Source of the DNA: a virus
Taxonomy: Duplodnaviria; Caudoviricetes
Strand: one strand, 5' to 3'
Length of the DNA: 64,000 nt
IMG/VR virus record: IMGVR_UViG_3300028840_008186
Location: 1-64,000 of that record
Each line of letters starts with the position of its first letter. The first letter of the stretch is position 1. Below the pieces are notes generated by a model that was not told the DNA's origin, searched no databases, and saw nothing but the letters and a program-made list of their open reading frames with translations. Both the position numbers and the translations under genes were made by a program. This document shows, piece by piece, positions 26,428 through 64,000 of this stretch.

Positions 26428-27329
26428 TAGGTCACGCTCTTCCACGCATTCTCGGTTTCATCAAAATAATGGGTAATATGATGGTCTATGCTTTCCACTG
26501 TGTCTCCAAAAGAATGCTCTATGGCCCCTCCGGATCTGCCAGCAGCTGTTTCTTCATAGTACTTAACACGAGTGCCGCCAATAGTTTTTTCTTTCAGCTT
26601 ATCAAAAGAAGGCTGCTTCCCAAATTCCGACCTTCGGCCAGCGCCTACTCCGCTCAACTCAGCTTCATACTGAATCTCGCCTTCCCATCCCTCCGTTGAG
26701 GCCGAGGATAAATAATCATCCGGATCCGCAAACTCAGGAGCCTGGACCTCCTCTGGGAATTGATTTGCTGCCGCCCGCAAAGACCGCCCTATAGTATCAT
26801 GAATATCTCGTGGGAAATGCTCCTTGGAGTACCTTTCAAAAGCTGGACCGAACCAAGGCCTGTAGGCCTCTAACATACCAGCGATGCCCCGCGTGCTGGT
26901 CATCGAGCCATAGGAAACCATACGCTTTAATTCAGGGTCGTACACTTGGTCCGGGGTATACTCTCCTTTGTGAATGCCTACAGTATACCCTCCGCGTCCC
27001 GAAGGCCAATAATCAATGCCCCTCAATAAAGCACCCGTTACACCAATGCCTACTTTATCTGTCTTAGCACCCAATTTGTACCGGCGCTTTAACCAATCCT
27101 TATTCAGGACTTTTTCCCGCCCACTAAAGAACTCTTGATCTATAAGAGACTTCCGAATAAAAGCAGCTAACCGGTTAGCTACTTTGCGTGTGAGCAAACC
27201 TCCTTGTTCTTGATCGTTCCAATACATGAAAGCGTTCTCTATGCCTTTCACACCACGCTTGGACTTCTTAGCCCAAGTAGTAAGATAGGCCACTTTCTCA
27301 TATCCTTCAAAACTTATTGGACTTCCCAT
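26427..27329 (-). CDS. neck/tail-completion protein (HK97 gp10-like) with acidic C-terminal extension
   Basis: TGALLRGI and RPWFGPAFE motifs; position. Confidence 0.55.
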   Translation of the reverse strand: MGSPISFEGYEKVAYLTTWAKKSKRGVKGIENAFMYWNDQEQGGLLTRKVANRLAAFIRKSLIDQEFFSGREKVLNKDWLKRRYKLGAKTDKVGIGVTGALLRGIDYWPSGRGGYTVGIHKGEYTPDQVYDPELKRMVSYGSMTSTRGIAGMLEAYRPWFGPAFERYSKEHFPRDIHDTIGRSLRAAANQFPEEVQAPEFADPDDYLSSASTEGWEGEIQYEAELSGVGAGRRSEFGKQPSFDKLKEKTIGGTRVKYYEETAAGRSGGAIEHSFGDTVESIDHHITHYFDETENAWKSVT

Positions 27330-32133: not shown

Positions 32134-33785
32134 TATTCAGACTCCGACTTGGGCGCTTTCTTTTCTTCACCCTTATTCTGCTCTTCGATCTCCTGCGCCT
32201 TTTCTTGATCAAGAGTCATCTTATCTTTGGGGTAGAGGTACTGCTCTAAAGCATGAAGCTTCCTTAAGCTTGGGTAATTATGAAAGCCCAAGCGCTCCGC
32301 TACCGCCTCCCTGGGAATTCCCAGAGTATCTACCAAGGAACCATGCTTAACCCCTAACATTGCCTTCGCGTGGGACTCAATGTCTTCTAATCTGGAAACC
32401 GGGAGCGATACGGATACCAATTTATAAGCTGGTTTTTGAACCTTCTTAATAACAGGTTTAAGACCATCTTCCCCTTCCGGATCGCCTTCATATCCAATTA
32501 CGTCATCAACTCTACGATTTTCCTTGAAGTTAGTTGCAGCTGATTTCAATTTCAGAATCGGACGCCAAAAGTTGTATCTCAGAAAGGTCTTGAAGTACGA
32601 CAATTCATCATTGATTCGATCGCCCTGCGGTCCTTGAGCAGCCTTAACTGAAGCGTAGGTACTCTTATAATCTCCTAGCATCATATCCTGGGGCTTGTTC
32701 AGGCCGGAGGAAACCATCTGCATAATATCGGTATCCTGATCGGAGATCGATGGTAAGCTAGGATTCTGAACCTCTAGCTTCATACCAGGAGGAAGTACTA
32801 AAGTGCCCCCAGGTTCCTTGGGCTGCAGAATACCGGTGGAACTTCGTTGGTCCTCTGTCAAAGCCAGCCAGGAACGGAACGCCCGAACGTCCTCCATTGT
32901 GATAACCCATAGATAGGCACCGCTCGATTTCTTGTGATCAATCTCGTATTTCTTCAACTCCTCATAATAGTTCAGCCATTCAATGGTAGTCCGAATATGA
33001 GAGACGTTTCGACGGGTTAGCATGCTGCGGTCCCACCGCACTATAAACCGATAGTACCCGCCAATCTTTTCCAACTTCTTATTATTGGACTTGCTTTTCT
33101 TGAGCTTGTCGGATTTATATGCTGAGTGTTGTTTGACTGCGTTTTCCAGTTCCGGAAAGTACGCAATGTTTATAGAGGGAACCAAAAGCTTTTCCGAACT
33201 CAACAACTTATCCGTCTTCTCAAATTGCACATTGTAAAACAACGGCAGGGTTTGTTTTACCGGATGGAAAATAATACCGGAGCCCTTGTCCGCTCCTACC
33301 AACGAATCCGGTGATATGAAATCGACTTCTACAAACCCATCGTTGTGAATCGTGAGCATCAAGAAGAGTTCCCCTTCTATCTCTGCCCTGCCCACGAACT
33401 TGGGAAAGTTCTCACACAAAGCATTCCTGGGATCTTCCATCGTCTCATCAATGGCTTCTTGTATATCCGGGACTTCTGAATAGAAACCAAACCCCCAACC
33501 AGCCATCCGGCCCATAATATCCCGGACGTGAGAACCGATCTGTGGATTCTTCTCGAACTTGTTCCAACATTGCTTGCGGAGGTTCCGGAGATCGTACTCC
33601 CCTTCATTGTAAGAGGTGGAAACAGGGAATCCATCGGAGTCGGTCTTTTTCACTGTTGCAGAAGCATGACTGAATAACGGGAATGAAAACTGAATCTGCC
33701 GGAGGGTATCATCCGGCAGCTTCATAAGACTATGCGCTACATCATCATTCCCCAAAGCAGCTAAAGGGTATTTAGTGCGAGGCAT
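32133..33785 (-). CDS. portal protein
   Basis: 550 aa between TerL and protease; EIEGELF, PGGTLVLPPG, TYAS. Confidence 0.85.
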   Translation of the reverse strand: MPRTKYPLAALGNDDVAHSLMKLPDDTLRQIQFSFPLFSHASATVKKTDSDGFPVSTSYNEGEYDLRNLRKQCWNKFEKNPQIGSHVRDIMGRMAGWGFGFYSEVPDIQEAIDETMEDPRNALCENFPKFVGRAEIEGELFLMLTIHNDGFVEVDFISPDSLVGADKGSGIIFHPVKQTLPLFYNVQFEKTDKLLSSEKLLVPSINIAYFPELENAVKQHSAYKSDKLKKSKSNNKKLEKIGGYYRFIVRWDRSMLTRRNVSHIRTTIEWLNYYEELKKYEIDHKKSSGAYLWVITMEDVRAFRSWLALTEDQRSSTGILQPKEPGGTLVLPPGMKLEVQNPSLPSISDQDTDIMQMVSSGLNKPQDMMLGDYKSTYASVKAAQGPQGDRINDELSYFKTFLRYNFWRPILKLKSAATNFKENRRVDDVIGYEGDPEGEDGLKPVIKKVQKPAYKLVSVSLPVSRLEDIESHAKAMLGVKHGSLVDTLGIPREAVAERLGFHNYPSLRKLHALEQYLYPKDKMTLDQEKAQEIEEQNKGEEKKAPKSESE

Positions 33786-35664
33786 GGTTTACTCCGTATT
33801 TCCCGTGAAGGTTACGTTTGTTGGAGAAGAAGGTCCCAAAATCAGCGGAACCTTTCCTTTCCCGGAAATGCCCAACTCCAAGGTTCCGTCCTCCATATAT
33901 ACACCACCCCAATGAAAACACGGAGTCATCCTGAACTCCGTCCTTTTCGTCCTTCTCTGGGGTGCCATACCATTTCTTTTGGGAATCATAATCGAATATC
34001 TTCAGCTCCTCGTCCAATATGTCTTCGTTCTTGGAGCCGGGAACGCCTACTAAAGGTGCCTTAAATCGCCCCTCTGCAGAGACGACATAGAGTTCGGTGA
34101 AGCACTTTTTCTGCTTCTCATAACTTGGGAACGTCGCCTCGAATTCAATTTCAAGCTCCTCGCACCAGGGAGCGAGGTCCCAGCATCCCCATCGCTCGGC
34201 GCAGAGCGTATCGATTCCATCGAATTCCGCGTAGGCATCCCGAAGGACAGATTTGATGCCTTCGAGCGTCGATCCCTCGACGTGATCGAGCGCAAGGAGG
34301 AAGTAGATGTAGTTGGGTACATTCTTTTCATGATCGTAGATAACTCCTTTGTTCTTGCTGTCTCTCAGTCCCTTAGCGACTACTGTGACGATCGTCCGCG
34401 CCATTCCTTCGGCAGCCATCGGATCTGCGCGGTCAATCCCCGCAAGTATCGCCCAGTCCGTATTGTAGATTTTACTGAGCTTTACCAAATCCTCGTTTTC
34501 GGCCATCATAGGGATGCCGTTACGTTGGAGATGGTAAACCTCATCTACAGGAACCAGTCTTTTCTCTATTGTATTGATCTGTTCCAAGAAAGTCAATCTG
34601 TTTTTGTTTTTAGTACGCCGACTTCGCCTTTTTGCTTGTTTATTATAGGTTCCGGAACGCTGTCTTTCCTTATTTAAAAGCGTTTGCCTCTCTTCGCAGA
34701 CCTCTCTTACCAATAGCGGATCGCACCCTATCTTCCCATCAATCCCTATATAGCGGAGCGAATCTACAATGGGTTCCGGGAACAGCTTGCCCGCAGCTGC
34801 ATCCCATGTGTTCTTGAAGTACTGATTGTATTCTGGAGTTGGAAACCGGTAGGAGTACGACTTCAATTGCTCTTGGGTCATCAACGGATGCCAAAAATCA
34901 GTAAAGTGGGCCTCTGGGGAATTCCGATAATTGAAATACAGCGTTCTATCAGACCCTGCCAAGTGAGCTTTGTACAGCTGGTACAGAATGTGGTCCTTCT
35001 TAGACACGGTCGAGTCAATAACTCCCAATGCATTGGGAATGTTCCGCGTCGATCCGTCCAGCTGTACAAAGAACTTGGGATTCGTCATGTCAAAGATTTC
35101 TGAAAAAGAGTACCCGGTAATGTTGGACACAATACCAGAAAACGAGGAGATAGCGCGGATGGTAGAAATGATACCGTTGTCCTCCGCGCTTCTGAGATTG
35201 ACTTGCTTCTCCTGAATATTCTTGTGCCCTATCACCTGGAGTAGCTCCGGGGAATTCCGGATTGTATCGGTTATAATATCATAGTGGACAAACTTTACCT
35301 GGTCGCGGGAGTTGGCCCCGAGAACGATCTGCTGGTTGGGGAAGCAAAAGAACTTCCACATCTGTATCAGACATACTAGAAAAGACTTGCCCTCGCCCCG
35401 CATCCAGCACAAAACGATAAGCCGGTGCTTGAACTTACCATTGCGCATCTCCAGGGCCTCATGCAGTATATCTTTCTCAGCTTGCCAGAACTCCGCCCAA
35501 CTCCTCCCGGTGTCCGGATCCTTCTCCGTAGGCAGATCCCCCATCAACCGCCATTCTGAGTGGTGGGTCCCGGGAATGGGGATCTTAACGCGGACGTTTT
35601 CCTCCGCCCATAACGTCATGCCCTCGCCGCCGTTTTGGTACTGATCTAATTTGCCAAAGTCCAT
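33772..35664 (-). CDS. terL: terminase large subunit
   Basis: Walker A MRGEGKS, ANSRDQ, IDST coupling motif, nuclease AGID and QDDSVFS. Confidence 0.88.
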   Translation of the reverse strand: MDFGKLDQYQNGGEGMTLWAEENVRVKIPIPGTHHSEWRLMGDLPTEKDPDTGRSWAEFWQAEKDILHEALEMRNGKFKHRLIVLCWMRGEGKSFLVCLIQMWKFFCFPNQQIVLGANSRDQVKFVHYDIITDTIRNSPELLQVIGHKNIQEKQVNLRSAEDNGIISTIRAISSFSGIVSNITGYSFSEIFDMTNPKFFVQLDGSTRNIPNALGVIDSTVSKKDHILYQLYKAHLAGSDRTLYFNYRNSPEAHFTDFWHPLMTQEQLKSYSYRFPTPEYNQYFKNTWDAAAGKLFPEPIVDSLRYIGIDGKIGCDPLLVREVCEERQTLLNKERQRSGTYNKQAKRRSRRTKNKNRLTFLEQINTIEKRLVPVDEVYHLQRNGIPMMAENEDLVKLSKIYNTDWAILAGIDRADPMAAEGMARTIVTVVAKGLRDSKNKGVIYDHEKNVPNYIYFLLALDHVEGSTLEGIKSVLRDAYAEFDGIDTLCAERWGCWDLAPWCEELEIEFEATFPSYEKQKKCFTELYVVSAEGRFKAPLVGVPGSKNEDILDEELKIFDYDSQKKWYGTPEKDEKDGVQDDSVFSLGWCIYGGRNLGVGHFRERKGSADFGTFFSNKRNLHGKYGVNHASH

Positions 35665-36565: not shown

Positions 36566-37231
36566 TTAAAACTTTGCACCTGTACCCTCTTTCATGTCCT
36601 TGCCTTTGGTCCGTTTGGGAGTCTGGGGTTTGCCCATCAACGCTTCCAGGTACTCTTCTTGTACTGTGGGTGGCTTGGGTATACACTTTTTGCCCCCTTT
36701 ACGCCGCTGTGCAATCCGACCCCAGTGCCTGTCTATGGAATCGCAGGTTTTCCTGAACTCCCTATACACTGGGTGCACACGGCTGGAATCTTCAGGATCC
36801 CGGGACCATCCGTCCAACCGCAACATCTCCATCTTATGCCTCCAAAGATTATTATACAAAGGCACAAGGTTGAAACCGATAACCACAACCTTATCCCAAT
36901 CTGGTCCTGAAACCTCCATAAGCTGCAATGCAGAAGTAATTACAGCTCGCAAATAGTACTTTTGCAAAAGACACCATTTCCATCTGATTCCTGAAATGGG
37001 CATAGCCTTCTTTTCACTATTGCGAGCGTAGGTGCAAGGACGTAAGGGACATTCTATCTCCCGGCATTCCTCTAGGTGATCCCAAAACACCAAGTTATAC
37101 CCTTCAGGATCCCCTGTAGGCCACTTGCCTCTGTGAATGGTATCCCGTCCCATCTTGTCTATAAGCTGTGGGGGAAGCTTGAACTTTCGGAATGCTTTGG
37201 AATTAGTTGGCGATGTGAGTGTAACTCCCAT
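36566..37231 (-). CDS. putative terminase small subunit
   Basis: first gene of late operon, AAAGGAGGAGG RBS; VHPVYREFRK..DSI..HW resembles the P27-type TerS C-terminus. Confidence 0.45.
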   Translation of the reverse strand: MGVTLTSPTNSKAFRKFKLPPQLIDKMGRDTIHRGKWPTGDPEGYNLVFWDHLEECREIECPLRPCTYARNSEKKAMPISGIRWKWCLLQKYYLRAVITSALQLMEVSGPDWDKVVVIGFNLVPLYNNLWRHKMEMLRLDGWSRDPEDSSRVHPVYREFRKTCDSIDRHWGRIAQRRKGGKKCIPKPPTVQEEYLEALMGKPQTPKRTKGKDMKEGTGAKF

Positions 37232-37323: not shown

Positions 37324-37585
37324 CCTACTTCCTTTTGTGGTTCGAGTCTGCAGAACAGTATGTACCTGGGAAGGTGTAAGACTCTACTAGGACTATGTAC
37401 ATACCTGTGGGGTCAATACTCTGTGTGCACAGAATTTTGCGGTGGGTACCCCTGGCCTAGAGTAAGAAGGCGGAAAAACTCTTTAGAGAAGGGGGGTCGG
37501 ATTCTAAGGCTAAAACCTCCCGGACGGTACCGCCTCCCGGACGGGTAAAACCTAAAACCTAGTACTTAAGAAGGGAGAGAGAAAA

Positions 37586-38134
37586 ATGAGTAAAGGTAAA
37601 AGCGAGAAGGTAGAGAAGGTAGCGAAGGTCGGAGCGGGTAACGAAGCTTTAATCGAAGAGGCTAAAAGCCTAGGAGTTAAGGTAGACGCCCTACTTAGGG
37701 CGGGATTACTCGAAGAGGCGCGCGAGAAAATCGAGAGGGAAAAGACTCTAGCGAAGGCTAAGGAAGCCGCCCTAATCGTCGGTCGGTCGGCGAATCGATT
37801 CGCCCTATTTTATCGAAAGATAGGGGAGTCGCTAAAGGCGGGGCGTCTCCCGTCGGGAGTAGAGGATCGCGAGTATACCTTCGGTATACTCGGGCTTTAC
37901 CCGAAAGAGGGACGCGGGGGAGGAGTAAGTGACTGGGCTAATAAGGGCGCTTCTAAAGGAAACGCGCTATTCGCCGAAATCGTCCGGACCGGAAACGCCG
38001 AGGCCTTTCTAAAGGCCTACGATAAGGTCCGGACGGGCGAAGCGACCGAAGGGGTAAAAACCGGGATCGATTACCTAAAGGGATTCGCCCCCGAGATCCG
38101 TAAAGCCCTAGGATTCGCCCCCGAGAGTAAATAA
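37586..38134 (+). CDS. first early protein, function unknown; paralog of 40931-41365
   Basis: 182-aa ORF, purine-rich RBS, downstream hairpin; no Q/H/C. Confidence 0.85.
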   Translation: MSKGKSEKVEKVAKVGAGNEALIEEAKSLGVKVDALLRAGLLEEAREKIEREKTLAKAKEAALIVGRSANRFALFYRKIGESLKAGRLPSGVEDREYTFGILGLYPKEGRGGGVSDWANKGASKGNALFAEIVRTGNAEAFLKAYDKVRTGEATEGVKTGIDYLKGFAPEIRKALGFAPESK

Positions 38135-38146
38135 TAAACCTTAACC

Positions 38147-38169
38147 GGGAGGGGCGCTTCGCCCCTCCC
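38147..38169 (+). terminator. GC-rich hairpin without U-tract
   Basis: GGGAGGGGCG-CTT-CGCCCCTCCC. Confidence 0.5.
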
Positions 38170-38192
38170 CTACTACGAAGGAGGTCTGGAAA

Positions 38193-38351
38193 ATGGAATT
38201 AGTAGAACTTTTTGAAAGGTACGAATTTCCTAAGGACGAATGCTTCGGATTAGCCGACGACGAATTGGAGAACTATTACCTTCGGACCGAACGGGAAAAT
38301 ACCGGTCTGAAGATAGTGGAGCTCGATTATCCTAACGTAACCTGGGCTTAG
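38193..38351 (+). CDS. 52-aa acidic protein (absent from ORF track)
   Basis: AAGGAGGT RBS; MELVELFERYEFPKDECFGLADDELENYYLRTERENTGLKIVELDYPNVTWA. Confidence 0.7.
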   Translation: MELVELFERYEFPKDECFGLADDELENYYLRTERENTGLKIVELDYPNVTWA

Positions 38352-38361
38352 AACCTGAAAA

Positions 38362-38388
38362 GACCCCTCCCGTAGGGAGGGGTCATTT
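38362..38388 (+). terminator. hairpin/terminator closing the first early unit
   Basis: GACCCCTCCC-GTA-GGGAGGGGTC followed by ATTT. Confidence 0.6.
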
Positions 38389-38404
38389 CCCCAGCCACCC
38401 AGGC

Positions 38405-38694
38405 CCACTTTTCTGTCCAGCTCACGGATATTTCTGGGAACAAATCGGTAGACTCACTTTTGTGGTTTGAGTGATGGCGGATACGCAAATCCTGAACTGT
38501 TCGCTGCAGTCCACTTTTCTGGTCTGAATAAAACAACTCTATTCCACTTTTCTGAACCCTGCTTGCCTCACTCACTAAAGTGGGTGCTGAGGAACACTTT
38601 TTCTTAGGAACACTTTCTTGAACTGGGTGTGCTGCAAGGTTGATGGCATGACGCAGAAGCCCTGAGCAATGGGTTCTGAAACTTGGTTGATGGC
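38405..38694. repeat. non-coding iteron-like repeat tract
   Basis: CCACTTTTCTG at 38405, 38511, 38544; GGAACACTTT at 38591, 38607; GGTTGATGGC at 38638, 38685. Confidence 0.75.
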
Positions 38695-38887
38695 TGGCAA
38701 AATCAACACGCGCATACCCATAACGCAGGAACACCAATACACTTACCCACCTACATACCCCACCTTAGCCCCAGTGCTTTCCTAGTCTACACACTTTCCA
38801 GAGTACCACCACTCTTCAGCCTAATAGCAATTAGGTACTCATACATACACTCCCCTAATTTATTCCGTACCACTACGAATATTTCCC

Positions 38888-38918
38888 TTTATGGGGTACC
38901 CGGTGGTTAGGGTAAGCT
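38888..38918 (+). promoter_or_regulatory. repeated early promoter, copy 1
   Basis: TTTATG-19 bp-TAAGCT containing TACCC-N8-GGGTA. Confidence 0.7.
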
Positions 38919-40828: not shown

Positions 40829-40930
40829 ATACCTAAATCGTTAGAAAACGACCGGCTCAAGGAGAAAGGAGGTGAGATAGTGAAGGGAGCCAACAACAAA
40901 CTCAATCCAAACGGAAAGGAGAATGAGAAG

Positions 40931-41365
40931 ATGGGAAAGAAAAAGATAGTCAGGAATGCAGGACAACACAAGGTTGAAGATCTCCGCGCCCAAGCAGCCG
41001 AAGCTGGTGTGGATATCTCCAAGCTGGTAGAGGCGGGATTGCTCGATGAGGCTGCGAACAAGATCGATCAGAGCGAAAAGCTCAAAGCAGCCGAAGCCAA
41101 GAAGACCGGCAAAGCCATTCCCAAAAACCGCTGGGAACGGTTGTGGACCAAGATCGATAGGGAGATCAAGGATCTCGGCGTTGAGGATTGCGAGATTCTG
41201 ATGGCGATGAAATATCTCACCCTGAAAGAGGGTGAGGGCGGCGGTTCCAGCGATTGGGGCCACAAAGCGGGGCTGAAAGCTGCCCTGCTCGCATATAGGC
41301 ACGCCCCTGAATGCCTGTCCAAGGCGCACAAAGCGAAGATCAAGGAGATGATCAAAGACGCTTAG
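40931..41365 (+). CDS. paralog of first early protein (alternative GTG start at 40880)
   Basis: shares AGLL(D/E)EA..KI, NR(W/F), GVED.E, KEG.GGG.SDW..K with 37586-38134. Confidence 0.85.
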   Translation: MGKKKIVRNAGQHKVEDLRAQAAEAGVDISKLVEAGLLDEAANKIDQSEKLKAAEAKKTGKAIPKNRWERLWTKIDREIKDLGVEDCEILMAMKYLTLKEGEGGGSSDWGHKAGLKAALLAYRHAPECLSKAHKAKIKEMIKDA

Positions 41366-48010: not shown

Positions 48011-48415
48011 ATGAGCAGATCCTATATCAAGAAGGAAGTAGCAGAGATTCTTGGAGTTGAGCGGCACACGATCCAATATTACACCGACCGGGGCCTTATC
48101 AACCCGGATGTTCATGCTCCCAAAGGACGAGGCAAGTGGCGAAGATATAGCAAATACAATATCTTCGAGGCAGCGTTGCTTCGCCGATTAAATGAGGCAA
48201 GAGTCACTTTGGAAGACGGAAAGTTTGTATTAGGACGACTGAGGGCCGGGTGCGCCAACGAGTCCCTAATGAACTTATGCTATTGGAAGTCACCATGGAT
48301 GTTAGTACTACATGGGCACGGAGTCGGCTTGGTAGCTGAGATTACCATGAGCCGACAATTACACATGCGCGGCGTCAGCTGCTTAGTAATAAAATTGGGC
48401 GGTTTGAAGTTTTGA
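48011..48415 (+). CDS. MerR-family HTH transcriptional regulator
   Basis: Y..KEVAEILGV..HTIQYY..RGLI.P.....GRG..RRYS. Confidence 0.85.
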   Translation: MSRSYIKKEVAEILGVERHTIQYYTDRGLINPDVHAPKGRGKWRRYSKYNIFEAALLRRLNEARVTLEDGKFVLGRLRAGCANESLMNLCYWKSPWMLVLHGHGVGLVAEITMSRQLHMRGVSCLVIKLGGLKF

Positions 48416-59751: not shown

Positions 59752-60197
59752 TGGGACGTTGGAAAAGTATACCTGGATACCCTGGCTATTGGGCTTCGGC
59801 CCAAGGTCAGGTTCTAGGTAAAAAGGGCGGAGTTCTCAAGCCGAAGCTTAAGAAATATGCATATGTTGATTTGTATAGGAACAACAAGAGGGCGCGTAGG
59901 CCCATCCACCAATTGGTACTGGAGGTTTTCGGACCTCCTAGGCCTTCTCCTAACCACTTCCCGAATCACAAAGATGGTAACAAATTGAATAATAGTATTT
60001 CTAATCTTGAATGGCTCACTCCTAAAGAGAATATGAGACACGCTGTGAAAACTGGTCTGTTCGTTATCCCATCCGGTCCCAAGAATCATTGGCATGGAAA
60101 GGCTCAGTCCGCTTCTCATATTCTAAAAAGATCAGAAGCCATGAGAGGTAAGAAAAACCATCAGTATAAACATGGGAGGTATTCTGCTTATGAGTAA
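59751..60197 (+). CDS. free-standing NUMOD4-HNH homing endonuclease
   Basis: WKSIPGY.GY..S..G; IHQLV..F; NHKDGNKLNN...NLEW.T..EN..HA. Confidence 0.9.
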   Translation: MGRWKSIPGYPGYWASAQGQVLGKKGGVLKPKLKKYAYVDLYRNNKRARRPIHQLVLEVFGPPRPSPNHFPNHKDGNKLNNSISNLEWLTPKENMRHAVKTGLFVIPSGPKNHWHGKAQSASHILKRSEAMRGKKNHQYKHGRYSAYE

Positions 60198-61269
60198 GCA
60201 TGGTTTATCAGTGCGTGGTGATTGTTTATACTGCCCGCTTCCCCTCTCCATAGACCCATACAACAACTGCCTCGTAGACTGCCACCATTGTTATATGAGG
60301 CGGTTGAATCATGTATGGGGCAAAGAACTCAAGCCGTTGGATCCAGAAGCTTTGAGAAAGAAGCTCACCAACGGCTTGAAAAACAAGAATCCCAAATCCT
60401 CGATGGCCAACTGTCTCGCCAGAAAGAAAACTATACGGATTGGCAACAAGGCTGATGGCTTCCAACCGATCGAGGACGATCTGCATATCACGGCCCAAGT
60501 GATACAGATCTTGGAAGAACTGGAGTGGAGTTATGTTATCCAAACAAGATTCCTATCAAGAGTCTGGGAATTTGGCTCCGACTATCGAGACGCCCTCTCT
60601 CCAAGAAACGCCGTTATTCTTCCGATTATTAGTCCTGGCCTTGAGATGGACTGGGAGATCCTCGAGAGAAGAAGAACGGATCCGCCAAGGGTTAGACTGC
60701 GGATCCTCAAAGAGTTTCGAGAGCGCGGATTCCACGGCGGCGTCAATGGAGAGCCTTTCATTCCTGGGTATCATACGGTGCAGGATTTCGAGGACACGCT
60801 CAAAACGCTCAGGGACTATGGGATCGACCGGTACAACACATACAACTTACACTTGAATGATTACGTTCTGAAACGACTAAACGATATCAATTTGGATATC
60901 GAGAAGATTTGGACCATGAATCAGGACAAGAATTGGAAGCCGATCCAACAGCAGCTTTGCGATCTTGCGAAAAAACATAATATCATACTGGGCTGTCCCG
61001 ACTTTGTAAACACCGGACCTGACTGGAAGGAGGAGGCTAATACTTGTTGCGGCATAGACGTTCCGAATCCAAGCCGATTTAATACCCATTACTTCAAGAA
61101 GACTATGCAGGCCGGAGTCAAGGCCCCTAACGCTGTACTAACGCAGCATTGGGAGGGTATCGGGGAGTTTGAGGAGGCCTTGAAGATAGTCCAAGGGAAA
61201 CGATCCGATATGTATACAATGGCTGATGCTGGATTGGTTAAGAAGCCCAAGAAAGGATTGATAGTATAA
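60190..61269 (+). CDS. radical SAM enzyme (SPL-like type)
   Basis: IDPYNNCLVDCHHCY (CxxxCxxC); D.FQP.E; EPFIPG; CCG. Confidence 0.88.
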   Translation: MSKHGLSVRGDCLYCPLPLSIDPYNNCLVDCHHCYMRRLNHVWGKELKPLDPEALRKKLTNGLKNKNPKSSMANCLARKKTIRIGNKADGFQPIEDDLHITAQVIQILEELEWSYVIQTRFLSRVWEFGSDYRDALSPRNAVILPIISPGLEMDWEILERRRTDPPRVRLRILKEFRERGFHGGVNGEPFIPGYHTVQDFEDTLKTLRDYGIDRYNTYNLHLNDYVLKRLNDINLDIEKIWTMNQDKNWKPIQQQLCDLAKKHNIILGCPDFVNTGPDWKEEANTCCGIDVPNPSRFNTHYFKKTMQAGVKAPNAVLTQHWEGIGEFEEALKIVQGKRSDMYTMADAGLVKKPKKGLIV

Positions 61270-61439
61270 TGGAAACGTATTGGGAACAAGTACAGCAGTT
61301 GCATGATCAATTAACCCACGTTGCTATTTCTTGCTTAGGCAAGGATCCCTTCGATCGGGACAAAGCCAAGTTTACTATAGCGGTCCTCGATGGACCAATG
61401 GAAGGAGAAATTGTCACTGTTGAAATGAGGATAGTATGA
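61269..61439 (+). CDS. 56-aa hypothetical protein (absent from ORF track)
   Basis: TAATG and ATGA coupling at both ends; METYWEQVQQ... Confidence 0.6.
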   Translation: METYWEQVQQLHDQLTHVAISCLGKDPFDRDKAKFTIAVLDGPMEGEIVTVEMRIV

Positions 61440-62143
61440 AAACAAATACGATATTAGCTGGAGACGCTCAGATGATGAGCGAGGATTACATACCTGACGG
61501 TTCGATTGACTTTGTTTTGACGTCTCCTCCGTATGATGGTGCGAACACTCCGAAGGGCGCTGCTCCGAACTTATACCAGTACGGCTTTGAGTTGAGTCGG
61601 GTGTTGAAAGATGGGGGTGTTTGCGTCTTGGTCATACAGGACATAGTCCACAACGGCATCAAGCGCGGCCACTCCATTCGAATCCCGTCCTATTGGATAG
61701 ATCACACCAAGCTAAATCTTTGGGACGATTATATCTATTGGCGCGGAGGGCAGGAGGGGTATTGGTGGAAGAATCGGATCCGCAAAGACCACGACTATAT
61801 GTGGATCTTCGTCAACAATGCGAACAAACCTAAAACCTTCAACAAGATCCGCTACTCCAATCAGGGCTCTATCTTTGATTACCGAACCGAGAAGCGGAAG
61901 ACCAATTTGAGGCGTCACAAAAAAGAGAAAGGCAAGCTATACCCGGTTGCGTTTCCTTTCCAGTTGGCTGAGGATATGATCCGGATCTTCACCAAAAAGG
62001 ATGACTTGGTACTAGATCCTTTTTGCGGGTACGGAACGACTCTCGCCGCAGCGAAGGTTTTGAATAGACGGTACTTGGGAATAGAACTGTTGGAGCACGT
62101 AGCATCGATCGCTACCAAGCACCTGGAGGCTGGATTACTATGA
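61436..62143 (+). CDS. amino-DNA methyltransferase (N4-C/N6-A, beta order)
   Basis: TSPPY precedes LDPFCGYGTT; P.AFP. Confidence 0.9.
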   Translation: MKTNTILAGDAQMMSEDYIPDGSIDFVLTSPPYDGANTPKGAAPNLYQYGFELSRVLKDGGVCVLVIQDIVHNGIKRGHSIRIPSYWIDHTKLNLWDDYIYWRGGQEGYWWKNRIRKDHDYMWIFVNNANKPKTFNKIRYSNQGSIFDYRTEKRKTNLRRHKKEKGKLYPVAFPFQLAEDMIRIFTKKDDLVLDPFCGYGTTLAAAKVLNRRYLGIELLEHVASIATKHLEAGLL

Positions 62144-62961
62144 GTTTAGGACTGAGAAAAACTCCTCGGCTCTTGGACCAATGGAAATCCCTCGCCAATA
62201 TAATAAACAATCCTGTTGAGTATTGGGATTTCCCTACCACAATGCTCGCCTTTGCTAAATCTTTGAAGAACTCTCAGCTTTTGCTTATGGAAGGCGGCGT
62301 TGTGTTCAGGATAAGGGGAAAGCAAGCGACATTGATCAATTGGTTCGGGGAAGAGGAGGATATGCGAGCAGCGGTATTTGCTCTTCAATCTCAAGATATC
62401 AAAGTGAAAAGCCTTAATTGGGAGAAGACTATGTTCTTCCCGGACAAGGGAGCGAAGGTCAAAGAATTCATTGTCTATGGCTTATATGACTTTGATCTTT
62501 CTACACAATGCCACTCGAGCAAGACCCGTGAAACTTTGAGGAGGAAGCACCGCCAGGGCAAGAAACGGTACACCGTAGGACATAAGCTGCCAGCTAGAGA
62601 GAAGATGGATGAACTATTTGCTAAATGGGCTGAGGAAGCCAGCAAGCGTCATTTTATGGTTGTTAAAGGACATTACCAAGCCTATATCGATCTACTTTAC
62701 AAAGGCTTTGCTAGCTGTATTTGCTTTTGGGAAGGCGAGGAACTGATAGGCATATGCGGTTACGAGGTTTTCGGCAGCTGTGCGCAAATAACTTTGATGA
62801 AGAATCGAAAGGCGCACAGTTGTTTCCCAGTTTACTTTTGGGTTGCGTCTGTAGAGACTATATCCCGGCACTATAACAAAGTATTTTGCGGATCAACCGC
62901 CGAGGGGCTCAAGCAACAGTTAGGTTTCCTGCCTTATGATACCTATAAGTTGAAGCTTTAG
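62140..62961 (+). CDS. GNAT/FemAB/DUF2156-like acyl- or aminoacyl-transferase
   Basis: RETLRR...; ELF.KW; FWEGEELIG; GS...GLKQQLG resemble tandem GNAT fold. Confidence 0.45.
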   Translation: MSLGLRKTPRLLDQWKSLANIINNPVEYWDFPTTMLAFAKSLKNSQLLLMEGGVVFRIRGKQATLINWFGEEEDMRAAVFALQSQDIKVKSLNWEKTMFFPDKGAKVKEFIVYGLYDFDLSTQCHSSKTRETLRRKHRQGKKRYTVGHKLPAREKMDELFAKWAEEASKRHFMVVKGHYQAYIDLLYKGFASCICFWEGEELIGICGYEVFGSCAQITLMKNRKAHSCFPVYFWVASVETISRHYNKVFCGSTAEGLKQQLGFLPYDTYKLKL

Positions 62962-63064
62962 TATTTTTATCCTTAAAAATAAATATTTCCTTTATTAAAA
63001 ACCATTTTATAGCCCTAGTTCAAGTCGGATTAGGGCTATATTTATGGGCGGAAGGAGGGCCGGG

Positions 63065-63907
63065 ATGACGATTCGATTGATACCAAATACTCCAGTGGAG
63101 GAGTATACCGTTAAAGGGCAAACGGTTTTAGTCAAAAGGGAAGATCGCGCTACACCTTATCCCGGTCCTCCATTTTCTAAAGTACGGGGGTTGGTGCCCT
63201 ACCTATGGGATTTAAAAGAGTTGGGATTCACAACCATAGGCTACGTGGAAACCTCTGTCTCTATGGCCGGATGGGGAGTCGCGTGGGCGTGCTATCACCT
63301 CGGCCTCGAGTGCATTTTATGGGACCCTCAATACGAGAAGACGCCACCGCTGCTTCGCTACCATCGGAAACAATGGAAGAAGTTCAACCCTAAGATTCTA
63401 CCGATTAAGGCAGGGATGGCAGCGGTAAACTATAATATAGCAGCTAAAGAGGTTCGCAAGACACCGGATTGTTTCTTGCTTCCGCTCGGATTGCCTCTCC
63501 CTTATACCGTAATGGAAACTGCTAAGATCGCCCGGGAGACGTGGAATAGCAATGTATTTCGTACCGTAGTAACATCGGTCGGTAGTGGTACAATATGTGC
63601 GGGACTCTTGAAAGGACTCCCTGGAGATGTTAAGATATTCGGAGTAATGACCAGAACCGGTTCATCAAAACACAAAGCAAAAACGATCCATAAAAAAGCA
63701 CACATCCCTATCGGCGGTTTTTTAGGGAACAAAAACCTGAGTGTAGTAGATCCGGGATGGAGATATGCTGACCGAAGCTCTTGGCCGTGTCCTTTCCCAT
63801 GCCACCCTTGGTATGATCGGAAGGCGTGGCAATGGTTAGACCAATGGATGGGGATGCAGCAAATGGATGGGCCAGTAATGTTTTGGAATATCGGGAGGGT
63901 GCGATGA
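63065..63907 (+). CDS. PLP-dependent enzyme, fold type II (ACC deaminase/D-Cys desulfhydrase-like)
   Basis: VLVKRED...PPFSKVRG (PLP lysine); VGSGTICAG; YDRKAW; FWNIG. Confidence 0.85.
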   Translation: MTIRLIPNTPVEEYTVKGQTVLVKREDRATPYPGPPFSKVRGLVPYLWDLKELGFTTIGYVETSVSMAGWGVAWACYHLGLECILWDPQYEKTPPLLRYHRKQWKKFNPKILPIKAGMAAVNYNIAAKEVRKTPDCFLLPLGLPLPYTVMETAKIARETWNSNVFRTVVTSVGSGTICAGLLKGLPGDVKIFGVMTRTGSSKHKAKTIHKKAHIPIGGFLGNKNLSVVDPGWRYADRSSWPCPFPCHPWYDRKAWQWLDQWMGMQQMDGPVMFWNIGRVR

Positions 63908-64000
63908 ACCGCATAAGTACAGACAACTACCCGTTACTGAAAGCGTTCGCTGATGCGTTGAAGCTGACTATTTTAGAAGAGATCGACGTTGAAGGGAAGT
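63904..64000 (+). CDS. partial ORF running off the window
   Basis: ATGA coupling, GGGAGG RBS. Confidence 0.55.
   Translation, partial: MNRISTDNYPLLKAFADALKLTILEEIDVEGK

What the first reader, a model, noticed from the sequence alone, without database searches (positions are those of the whole stretch)
37432..38383. ~950-bp CA-free, TG-poor island holding the first early genes; the avoidance extends to the protein sequence
Seen: no CA on the + strand from 37432 to 38383, where dozens would be expected. Only three TG occur in 37455-38185 (the start ATG and the Ser-Asp-Trp codons). The 182-aa protein has no Gln, His or Cys, one Met and one Trp, which are the residues whose codons force CA or TG. 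Intergenic DNA follows the same rule and the boundaries are sharp. Six-base palindromes (AAGCTT, CCTAGG, GTATAC, TCCGGA, AGGCCT, ATCGAT) and GATC are plentiful, so this is not ordinary type II site avoidance. Inference: this is first-injected/first-expressed DNA kept free of the CA:TG step. Either (a) the phage hypermodifies a base in that context (cluster at 60-64 kb) and the first gene must be readable by host RNA polymerase, or (b) host defences read CA-containing motifs (many type I/IIG/III/BREX m6A sites; Ssp phosphorothioation at CCA) and the gene encodes the antidote.
Basis: partly seen in the sequence, partly recalled or inferred. Interest (0 to 1): 0.92.

Follow-up and report, generated by a model that had tools for sequence, protein, structure and literature searches.

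The report
CA/TG-free early gene cassette, phage
An uncultured marine phage keeps one small early gene unit entirely free of the DNA step CA/TG, even at the cost of five amino acids, most likely so that this stretch escapes the chemical mark the phage seems to put on its own thymines.

Summary
The + strand has no CA from 37431 to 38383. That is a 954-base gap, and the next longest in the 92,221-bp genome is 118. TG occurs three times in 37455-38185. Reshuffling synonymous codons of the 182-aa gene never came close (0 of 20,000 trials).

Selection maintains the ban. A 39%-identical ortholog on another contig (L001) has the same layout, and 4 of 8 family proteins have no Gln, His or Cys and one Met and one Trp.

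The new result comes from relatives. At the same position, beside the packaging genes, 12 of 24 assessable related loci carry one island, but purged of GG/CC instead. The four larger such records that I searched encode the 7-deazaguanine (guanine-replacing) pathway. This phage lacks that pathway. It carries instead a thymidine-hypermodification-like module:
- a homolog of phage M6 gp52 (PLP enzyme);
- a dCMP deaminase;
- a uracil-type thymidylate-synthase homolog;
- two radical SAM enzymes.

Published thymidine hypermodifications sit at TG. So the island is most likely the one stretch kept out of reach of the phage's own TG-directed modification. The purpose is inferred, not shown; immediate reading on entry is my leading guess.

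This scan has already reported similar islands on other DNA. My four literature searches listed no paper on such islands.

The parts
37431..38383 (+). CA-free zone (the island): promoter block, leader, gene 1, hairpin, gene 2, hairpin
   Evidence: CA at 37430 and next at 38384
37454..38186 (.). Core free of both CA and TG, apart from the start ATG and AGTGACTGG
   Evidence: TG positions listed; stretches free of both CA and TG of 134, 343 and 253 bases
37435..37496 (+). Conserved promoter-like block (TTTGYGGTGGGTRCCCCTGKCCTAG ... TTTAGRGAAGGGGGG)
   Evidence: Aligned with L001. Shares the TACCC-N8-GGGTA dyad (one mismatch here) with three exact copies starting at 38897, 40807 and 45436. The simple sigma-70 scan did not call it. 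The transcription start is unknown.
37586..38134 (+). Gene 1: 182-aa helical protein of unknown function, with no Q, H or C, one M and one W
   Evidence: ORF; composition and resampling; orthologs P0004, P0005 and P0006 have the same composition; no Pfam or PHROG family
38147..38169 (+). GC-rich hairpin after gene 1 (GGGAGGGGCG-CTT-CGCCCCTCCC) with no T run. The TG-free core ends just after it.
   Evidence: Read. L001 has a hairpin with a T run at the matching place.
38193..38351 (+). Gene 2: 52-aa acidic ORF with a strong ribosome-binding site. CA-free, but holds 7 TG.
   Evidence: L001 has a 52-aa ORF in the same place that is not detectably homologous; it is CA-free and TG-enriched.
38364..38382 (+). 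Terminal hairpin. CA returns one base after it.
   Evidence: One search lists a terminator-like site on the minus strand here.
40880..41365 (+). Paralog of gene 1 (161 aa) with ordinary composition (Q3, H4, C2, M5, W3)
   Evidence: BLASTP 38% identity, E 3e-14; composition
36566..37231 (-). Last gene of the leftward (packaging and structural) arm. It is conserved in relatives and marks the island's position.
   Evidence: Homologs in G002, G003 and G004 lie directly beside their GG/CC-free islands.
33772..35664 (-). Large terminase subunit, used to find related phages
   Evidence: PHROG 2 and 9; 809 homologs at E <= 1e-20
60172..64000 (+). Start of the presumed thymidine-hypermodification module, which runs on to 71086 in the genome. 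It holds a radical SAM enzyme (60172-61269), an N6/N4 methylase (61436-62143), a PLP enzyme homologous to M6 gp52 (63044-63907), a dCMP deaminase (63999-64604), a second radical SAM enzyme (65590-66993), an LPG_synthase_C-like protein (68445-69251) and a thymidylate-synthase homolog (70316-71086).
   Evidence: Absent from G002-G004 apart from a weak methylase match in G002.

Best explanation
The island is a complete early gene unit: promoter block, leader, gene 1, hairpin, gene 2, hairpin. It sits at the head of the rightward arm. Selection keeps it free of the step CA/TG because this phage most likely hypermodifies thymine where it is followed by G, on either strand.

With no TG on the template strand anywhere in the unit, and none on the coding strand of gene 1, this cassette would be the one stretch of packaged DNA that carries no bulky modified base.

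The likeliest purpose is that the cassette is read as ordinary DNA at the very start of infection, by host RNA polymerase or DNA-binding proteins. A second possibility is that nucleases which recognise the modified base cannot see it. Either way, its lineage-specific cargo protein could be made first.

Shown: the ban, its maintenance by selection, its fixed genomic position in relatives, and the switch of banned step together with the type of modification module. Inferred: that the module modifies T at TG, and why a clean cassette is needed.
For: (1) The ban is extreme and acts at the nucleotide level. It covers synonymous sites, codon boundaries, the leader and the promoter block.

(2) It is conserved. 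L001 encodes an ortholog that is 39% identical. In L001, CA occurs only twice (both in ACAAT) between 173 and 1100, and TG only in ATG and TGG between 199 and 889. Resampling of its gene 1 gave CA 2 against 20.4 and TG 2 against 24.5, with 0 of 10,000 draws as low. Four of 8 family proteins have Q, H and C = 0, M = 1 and W = 1.

(3) Related phages (terminase 47-57% identical) have an island in the same place with another banned step. Of 24 loci with at least 3 kb held upstream of the terminase gene, 12 have a GG/CC-free stretch of at least 500 bases, 0 have a CA/TG-free one and 12 have neither. The complete records G002, G003 and G004 each have exactly one such island (664, 1017 and 781 bases; next longest 121, 73 and 64). 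In each it lies directly beside the homolog of 36566-37231.

(4) The banned step matches the modification module. QueC is present in G001-G004 and absent from G000. G002 and G004 also have GTP cyclohydrolase I, PTPS/QueD and QueE-like radical SAM enzymes. G002 has a DpdA-like transglycosylase (phrog_887, E 8e-43). G000 instead has:
- a PLP enzyme homologous to M6 gp52, the decarboxylase of thymidine hypermodification (E 6e-51), found in G000 alone of 9 records (gp52 was identified through its neighbour, which carries the CTVGCAFC motif named in PMC8989533);
- a dCMP deaminase;
- a thymidylate-synthase homolog with the catalytic Cys and an Asn aligned with the Asn of the thymidylate-synthase PFNIAS stretch; that this residue marks uracil rather than cytosine substrates is recalled knowledge;
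- two radical SAM enzymes.

(5) Published context. Thymidine hypermodification sits at TG or TC in M6, ViI and phiW-14 (PMC6449724, abstract and passages). It sits at TG in Pbunavirus F8 and 14-1 (PMC12191111, passages). A phage T-dioxygenase prefers NTG (PMC13229309, sections 8, 12 and 13).

(6) The coding strand lacks CA over the whole unit, while TG returns in gene 2, in both the window and L001. So the template strand is the one kept free of TG throughout.
Against: No modified base has been measured.

The kinase (5-HMUDK), the amino-acid:DNA transferase (aGPT-Pplase) and the gp53-type isomerase of the known pathway were not found in G000 at E <= 0.1. The record is 87% complete.

The two cultured phages with TG-context modification that I checked have no such island. 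The longest stretch free of CA and TG is 88 bases in F8 and 79 in M6.

G005 (thymidylate-synthase homolog, 84% complete) and G008 (QueC and a thymidylate-synthase homolog, 68% complete) show no island in the sequence held.

The link between module and banned step rests on 5 island-bearing records that may represent a single evolutionary switch. Three further island-bearing records (G011, G014, G016) gave no QueC, but they are only 20-42% complete.

Three other promoter-like blocks with the same dyad lie upstream of DNA with ordinary CA/TG content. If they are promoters, modified DNA can be transcribed, and the need for a clean cassette is unexplained.

TC/GA is not depleted in the island, unlike the TG-or-TC rule reported for M6.
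Confidence: 0.5

Rival explanations
1. A host factor, not the phage's own enzyme, reads CA/TG on DNA. It could be a defence nuclease, a nickase or a DNA-modifying toxin with a very short target. The cassette would encode the antidote and so must itself be untouchable.
For: The cargo differs between lineages, as anti-defence genes do. The cassette sits at the head of the early arm. Restriction motifs missing only from the leading region decide sensitivity in Murciavirus (PMC12455610, abstract).
Against: It does not explain why the banned step changes together with the phage's own modification module. I know of no described defence that reads a bare two-base step; that is recall, not a search. 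Ordinary restriction palindromes are present.
Confidence: 0.17
2. The ban acts on RNA. The messenger is kept free of CA (and, in gene 1, of UG) so that an endoribonuclease with a CA-containing target, of the MazF type, cannot cut it. The antidote or takeover protein could then still be translated.
For: The CA-free zone matches a transcription unit from the promoter block to the terminal hairpin. The ban is strand-specific in gene 2, in both the window and L001. That messengers without ACA survive MazF is recalled knowledge.
Against: L001 tolerates two ACA. The ban begins about 5 bases before the promoter-like block, so it probably covers untranscribed DNA. TG is banned as strictly as CA in gene 1. 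The positional counterparts in relatives ban GG and CC on both strands, which is hard to read as an RNA rule.
Confidence: 0.1
3. The stretch is kept free of the phage's own modification for a DNA transaction other than transcription. It would be a landing site for packaging, injection or replication proteins next to the terminase genes, and the genes inside it are passengers.
For: In all four whole island-bearing records that I compared (G000, G002, G003, G004), the island lies directly beside the last gene of the packaging arm. A repeat-rich non-coding tract follows it.
Against: The edges coincide with a promoter block and a terminal hairpin rather than with a site. A binding site would not need 950 bases or a rewritten protein. 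The coding-strand-only ban in gene 2 points to transcription.
Confidence: 0.1
4. The cause is chance, local hypermutation or recent import from a genome of odd composition.
For: TA and CG are raised, as CA-to-TA or CA-to-CG changes would produce.
Against: Hypermutation of CA and TG to TA would turn Gln and Trp codons into stops, yet the frame is intact and its orthologs are diverged. None of 20,000 synonymous redraws came near. The same rule holds in a 39%-identical ortholog. No other gap in the genome exceeds 118.
Confidence: 0.02

Closest known systems
Context-specific thymidine hypermodification of phage DNA (M6, ViI, phiW-14 at TG or TC; Pbunavirus F8 and 14-1 at TG; T-dioxygenase 5mYOX176 preferring NTG)
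   Same: This phage has a homolog of M6 gp52 (E 6e-51), a dCMP deaminase, a uracil-type thymidylate-synthase homolog and radical SAM enzymes. The banned step, TG on either strand, is the published context.
   Different: No kinase, transferase or gp53 homolog was found. TC is not banned. F8 and M6 have no CA/TG-free island. None of the parts of these papers that I read mentions a modification-free cassette.
7-deazaguanine DNA modification by phage DpdA with short target motifs (phage CAjan, PMC7544227)
   Same: Relatives G001-G004 carry QueC. G002 and G004 also carry FolE, QueD and QueE-like genes, and G002 a DpdA-like gene. All four keep the positionally equivalent cassette free of GG/CC.
   Different: A different base and a different banned step; this phage lacks the pathway. 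Of the CAjan paper I saw only the search listing. The motifs GA and GGC are recalled, and are also named in earlier notes of this scan.
First-step-transfer (pre-early) DNA of phage T5, and motif-free leading regions (Murciavirus, PMC12455610)
   Same: A short leading block of small genes of unknown or anti-defence function, followed by a repeat-rich non-coding tract, in which absence of a recognition word matters (abstract).
   Different: There, the avoided words are the sites of host restriction enzymes. Here, a bare two-base step is banned completely, at the cost of five amino acids, and it tracks the phage's own modification genes. A terminal position could not be tested. The T5 details are recalled.
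Messengers without ACA that resist MazF; CpG suppression in animal RNA viruses against ZAP
   Same: A very short word is removed from a coding sequence so that a sequence-reading factor cannot act on it.
   Different: Both act on RNA, and neither removes amino acids from the protein. L001 keeps two ACA. Both comparisons are recalled, not searched.

Membership tests
5-hmdU-derived thymidine hypermodification pathway (M6 / ViI type) | PLP-dependent decarboxylase of the gp52 / gp226 type | tested here: met
   G000 63044-63907 against M6 gp52: tblastn 36% identity over 282 aa, E 1e-49; phmmer E 6e-51. gp52 was identified by its neighbour, which carries CTVGCAFC.
5-hmdU-derived thymidine hypermodification pathway (M6 / ViI type) | 5-hmdU DNA kinase (P-loop, gp54 type) and amino-acid:DNA transferase (aGPT-Pplase2, gp51 type) | tested here: not met
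   phmmer of M6 gp51 and gp54 against the six-frame ORFs of G000 gave no hit at E <= 0.1. No Pfam family for the unassigned ORFs of the cluster. The record is 87% complete.
5-hmdU-derived thymidine hypermodification pathway (M6 / ViI type) | dUMP hydroxymethylase (thymidylate-synthase homolog) supplying 5-hmdUTP | tested here: inconclusive
   The thymidylate-synthase homolog has the catalytic Cys and an Asn aligned with the Asn of the thymidylate-synthase PFNIAS stretch, read as a uracil-type site from recalled knowledge. A dCMP deaminase lies beside it. Sequence alone does not separate a methylase from a hydroxymethylase.
5-hmdU-derived thymidine hypermodification pathway (M6 / ViI type) | Hypermodified thymidine present in virion DNA, at TG | not testable with these tools
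   All runs are held as assembled contigs. No native-DNA signal or mass spectrometry is available.
T5-type first-step-transfer region | Lies at the physical end of the packaged DNA, inside a terminal repeat | not testable with these tools
   Contigs only, so there are no read starts. The record is a permuted or partial contig.
T5-type first-step-transfer region | Homologs of the pre-early genes (A1, A2, dmp) | tested here: not met
   No Pfam or PHROG family for gene 1. Gene 2 has one weak match (E 0.005) to a PHROG of unknown function.
Restriction-site avoidance | Depletion of defined 4-8 base, often palindromic, recognition sites | tested here: not met
MazF-resistant (ACA-less) messenger | No ACA in the messenger | tested here: inconclusive
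   The window has no CA at all. The ortholog in L001 keeps two ACA.
Dinucleotide-purged cassette beside the packaging genes in phages with DNA-modification modules (a class known only from this scan's notes) | A single island per genome, a fixed position next to the packaging arm, conservation in diverged relatives, and a banned step that contains the base targeted by the module | tested here: met
   Single island in G000, G002, G003 and G004. Beside the homolog of 36566-37231. Conserved in L001. T module with TG/CA, and G module with GG/CC.

The most novel reading that the evidence does not exclude
Phages that decorate their DNA at a two-base context may keep one 'naked' starter cassette written without that context. 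When a lineage swaps its modification module (here 7-deazaguanine for hypermodified thymidine on the same genome backbone), the cassette is rewritten with a new banned step and new cargo. If so, the banned step reveals the sequence context of an unknown DNA modification from sequence alone. It would also mean that modified DNA has a cost at the first moment of infection that only unmodified DNA avoids.
Probability: 0.45. Interest if true: 0.9.

Novelty: new variant of a known kind. Interest (0 to 1): 0.8.

Why it matters
If the reading holds, three things follow.

(1) The context of a DNA hypermodification in an uncultured phage could be predicted from its genome alone, by finding the step missing from one cassette. 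That would guide restriction, nanopore and mass-spectrometry work.

(2) Bulky base modifications, known as shields against host nucleases, would also have a price. A phage pays five amino acids to avoid that price in one gene. This would make the effect of modified templates on transcription, or on modification-dependent nucleases, directly testable.

(3) The cassette's small proteins, which differ between lineages, are good candidates for first-acting takeover or counter-defence factors.

The paralog pair in this genome gives a built-in control: one purged copy and one ordinary copy.

Tried and rejected
Searches for the protein's function led nowhere.
- No Pfam or PHROG family for gene 1; gene 2 had one weak match (E 0.005) to a PHROG of unknown function.
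- AlphaFold on the 8-sequence alignment gave mean pLDDT 59.5 and pTM 0.31, too poor to search with, so no fold search was run.
- The ESM Atlas gave no usable feature hit, and its structure rows were all below TM 0.5.
- A profile search of the PDB gave only short coiled-coil or repeat matches.
- hhalign of the family against the 180-208-aa cargo proteins of GG/CC islands gave probability 0.06%.

Searches for more DNA of the family were mostly empty.
- blastn against the phage collection gave no match.
- Four IMG/VR scans were empty: two proteins, alignment A2 and the promoter pattern.
- The single metagenome scan gave only L001.
For these two the claim rests on protein composition alone, and on my reading of the in-frame leader of P0004.

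Expression and genome ends could not be assessed. No RNA holder was listed. All four runs laid were contigs, so there are no read starts, depth profiles or variants.

I compared CA against TG and CC against GG on the sense strand, genome-wide, in G000 and in G002-G004. There was no distinctive difference.

I looked, by eye from the numbers, for a consistent template-strand bias at the edges of GG/CC islands. The result was mixed, so no rule emerged.

The block 38698-38897 (24 CA, 2 TG) is the most lopsided in the genome but is not an outlier; others are 23:3 and 22:3.

The Pfam TGT family found nothing in any of the 9 records, although a PHROG transglycosylase family matches G002. Tet_JBP and ParB families are absent from G000, so the T-dioxygenase route of PMC13229309 is not the one used here.

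My four literature searches listed no paper whose title or abstract describes a dinucleotide-free cassette in a phage. Supplementary files were not opened.
Full report
WHAT IS THERE. The window is the first 64 kb of a 92,221-bp virus record that CheckV rates 87% complete. It is found in marine sediment and seawater metagenomes. Structural and packaging genes run leftward from 37231. Early, replication and nucleotide-metabolism genes run rightward from 37586.

At the head of the rightward arm, the + strand has no CA between 37430 and 38384, a gap of 954 bases. The next longest gap in the whole genome is 118. Base composition predicts 60.6 CA there. TG occurs three times in 37455-38185: the start codon and AGT GAC TGG. 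TA and CG, the synonymous substitutes, are raised.

IT IS SELECTION. I kept the 182-aa protein fixed and redrew synonymous codons with this genome's usage. That gave 16.7 CA and 29.6 TG on average, and 0 of 20,000 draws were as low as the observed 0 and 3. The protein has no Gln, His or Cys, one Met and one Trp (chance of no Q, H or C: 1.7e-6). A paralog 3 kb downstream (38% identical, E 3e-14) has ordinary composition.

An exhaustive profile-free search found six relatives besides the protein itself. Four of the eight family members (P0001; P0004 counted from its Met 64; P0005; P0006), which are 35-46% identical to each other's nearest, all have Q, H and C = 0, M = 1 and W = 1.

DNA was obtainable for one of these orthologs, L001, a 1,167-bp metagenome contig. 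It repeats the anatomy. CA occurs only twice (both in ACAAT) between 173 and 1100. TG occurs only in ATG and TGG between 199 and 889. The promoter-like block is conserved (TTTGYGGTGGGTRCCCCTGKCCTAG ... TTTAGRGAAGGGGGG). A hairpin follows gene 1. A second ORF of 52 aa is not detectably homologous to the window's, has no CA, and has more TG than expected: 16 against 9.8.

So two regimes are conserved. The core is clean on both strands. An extension is clean only for CA on the coding strand, which means TG on the template strand.

IT IS NOT AN ARTEFACT. Contigs of 28.5 kb from two runs span the island without a difference, and contigs from six studies hold it, though some may be the source of the record.

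THE DECISIVE COMPARISON. The large terminase has hundreds of homologs. An alignment of 20 of them retrieved 80 IMG/VR loci, 47-57% identical. I scanned all 16 dinucleotides in each locus. Many have a single large gap in the same place, 0.8-2.5 kb upstream of the terminase gene, but for GG and CC rather than CA and TG.

Of the 24 loci with at least 3 kb held upstream:
- 12 have a GG/CC-free stretch of at least 500 bases (at most 2 exceptions);
- 0 have a CA/TG-free one;
- 12 have neither.
Six more of the 56 shorter loci show a GG/CC-free stretch.

In the three complete records, G002, G003 and G004, there is exactly one such island (664, 1017 and 781 bases; next longest 121, 73 and 64). It lies directly beside the homolog of the window's gene 36566-37231. 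The island is therefore a positional feature of this phage group, and its banned step differs between lineages. The cargo differs too. The relatives' island proteins have no match in G000, the gene-1 family has no match in the eight other records, and a profile comparison is empty.

THE BANNED STEP FOLLOWS THE MODIFICATION MODULE. The whole block 60172-71086 of G000 has no counterpart in G002-G004, apart from a weak methylase match in G002.

In its place, G002 and G004 carry GTP cyclohydrolase I, 6-pyruvoyl-tetrahydropterin synthase (QueD), QueE-like radical SAM enzymes and QueC. G002 also has a DpdA-like transglycosylase (phrog_887, E 8e-43). These are the genes of 7-deazaguanine DNA modification. 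QueC is present in G001-G004 and G008 and absent from G000, G005, G007 and G009.

G000 instead carries:
- a PLP enzyme that is a clear homolog of M6 gp52 (E 6e-51), found in G000 alone among the nine records. gp52 is the decarboxylase of thymidine hypermodification (PMC8989533, abstract and passages). I identified it by its neighbour, which bears the published CTVGCAFC motif.
- a dCMP deaminase.
- a thymidylate-synthase homolog with the catalytic Cys and an Asn aligned with the Asn of the thymidylate-synthase PFNIAS stretch. That this residue marks uracil rather than cytosine substrates is recalled knowledge.
- two radical SAM enzymes and an LPG_synthase_C-like protein.

Published work places thymidine hypermodification at TG or TC in M6, ViI and phiW-14 (PMC6449724, abstract and passages). 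It places it at TG in Pbunavirus F8 and 14-1 (PMC12191111, passages). A phage T-dioxygenase prefers NTG (PMC13229309, sections 8, 12 and 13).

So the guanine-modifying relatives ban GG/CC, and the relative that appears to modify thymidine bans TG/CA.

WHAT THIS SUPPORTS AND WHAT IT DOES NOT. The simplest account is that the cassette is written so that the phage's own context-specific modification cannot touch it.

The caveats are these.
- The association rests on five island-bearing records, possibly a single switch.
- Three further island-bearing fragments (20-42% complete) gave no QueC.
- G005 and G008 carry module genes but show no island in the 84% and 68% held.
- F8 and M6, the cultured TG-modifying phages I checked, have no island.
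- The kinase and transferase of the known thymidine pathway were not found.
- TC is not banned.

The purpose is inferred. The template strand is clean over the whole unit while the coding strand is relaxed in gene 2. That fits a need for RNA polymerase to read an unmodified template. A study with T7 RNA polymerase reports that uracil modifications act differently in the template and non-template strands (PMC11550810, abstract).

Against this, three other promoter-like blocks with the same TACCC-N8-GGGTA dyad lie upstream of DNA with ordinary CA/TG content. Escape from nucleases that recognise the modified base, such as the END nucleases of PMC12191111, is an equally open purpose. So is a packaging or injection role next to the terminase genes.

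RIVALS. A host factor that reads CA/TG would explain variable cargo, but not the co-variation with the phage's own module. An RNA-level rule, a messenger immune to a CA-cutting RNase, fits the strand asymmetry and the unit-shaped edges. It is weakened by two ACA in L001, by the equally strict TG ban in gene 1, by the ban starting just before the promoter-like block, and by the two-strand GG/CC bans of relatives. Chance, hypermutation and import are excluded by the intact frame, the resampling and the diverged ortholog.

RELATION TO EARLIER NOTES OF THIS SCAN. The scan has reported GG/CC-free and CA/TG-free cassettes on other DNA before, and several follow-ups proposed escape from the phage's own modification. 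Those notes are unchecked. One of them gave me the lead to PMC12191111.

What I tested myself and add here is the side-by-side case within one terminase group: the same position, a different module, a different banned step and different cargo.

My four literature searches listed no paper whose title or abstract describes such a cassette.

Noticed in passing
window 38385-38880; L001 886-1140: A non-coding repeat tract lies right after the island. CCACTTTTCTG occurs three times. CTGAA occurs 6 times in 450 bases, the genome maximum (mean 0.77). In L001, the motif CTGAA(A) recurs at least eight times at 13-14-base spacing through the second ORF and beyond. This may be an array of binding sites.
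   Followed up: partly
window 38698-38897: This block has 24 CA and 2 TG. It is the most lopsided 200 bases in the genome but not a clear outlier; others are 23:3 and 22:3.
   Followed up: yes
window 37447, 38897, 40807, 45436; 48011-48415: There are four copies of a promoter-like block with the dyad TACCC-N8-GGGTA (the copy at 37447 has one mismatch; a fifth one-mismatch hit at 26941 lies in the structural arm). A MerR-family regulator gene lies in the early arm.
   Followed up: partly
window 37417-37428 and 38805-38817 (run X6): In one run the assembly breaks exactly at both sides of the island plus repeat tract, giving a separate 1,401-base contig. This may reflect strain variation or a repeat at the edges.
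   Followed up: no
window 37431-38383 against the rest of the genome: CTAG is scarce in the genome (1.41 per kb) but common in the island (5.25 per kb). CCTAGG occurs twice in the island, against about 0.03 per kb elsewhere.
   Followed up: no
L013 2353-2833; L040 618-1489; L038 1-773; L079 5641-6525; L053 5443-5920: Some terminase relatives show stretches missing other steps (TC and CC; AA, GG and GC; TG, GA and GG; CT and TC). These may be further banned words or low-complexity DNA.
   Followed up: no
P0016, P0017, P0039, P0051, P0059 (terminase homologs); G002 21348-23060: There are inteins in the large terminase of several relatives, and an intein or HINT domain in the QueE-like radical SAM enzyme of G002.
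   Followed up: no
genome 71083-73694 (L002 7083-9691): The family A DNA polymerase is split into two ORFs. The first carries a uracil-DNA-glycosylase-like domain plus the 3'-5' exonuclease.
   Followed up: no
L004/L005 (phage F8) 50600-51200: About 600 bases are almost without A on one strand. This is the reverse strand of a Lys/Glu/Ala-rich repeat gene, not a CA/TG-free island.
   Followed up: yes
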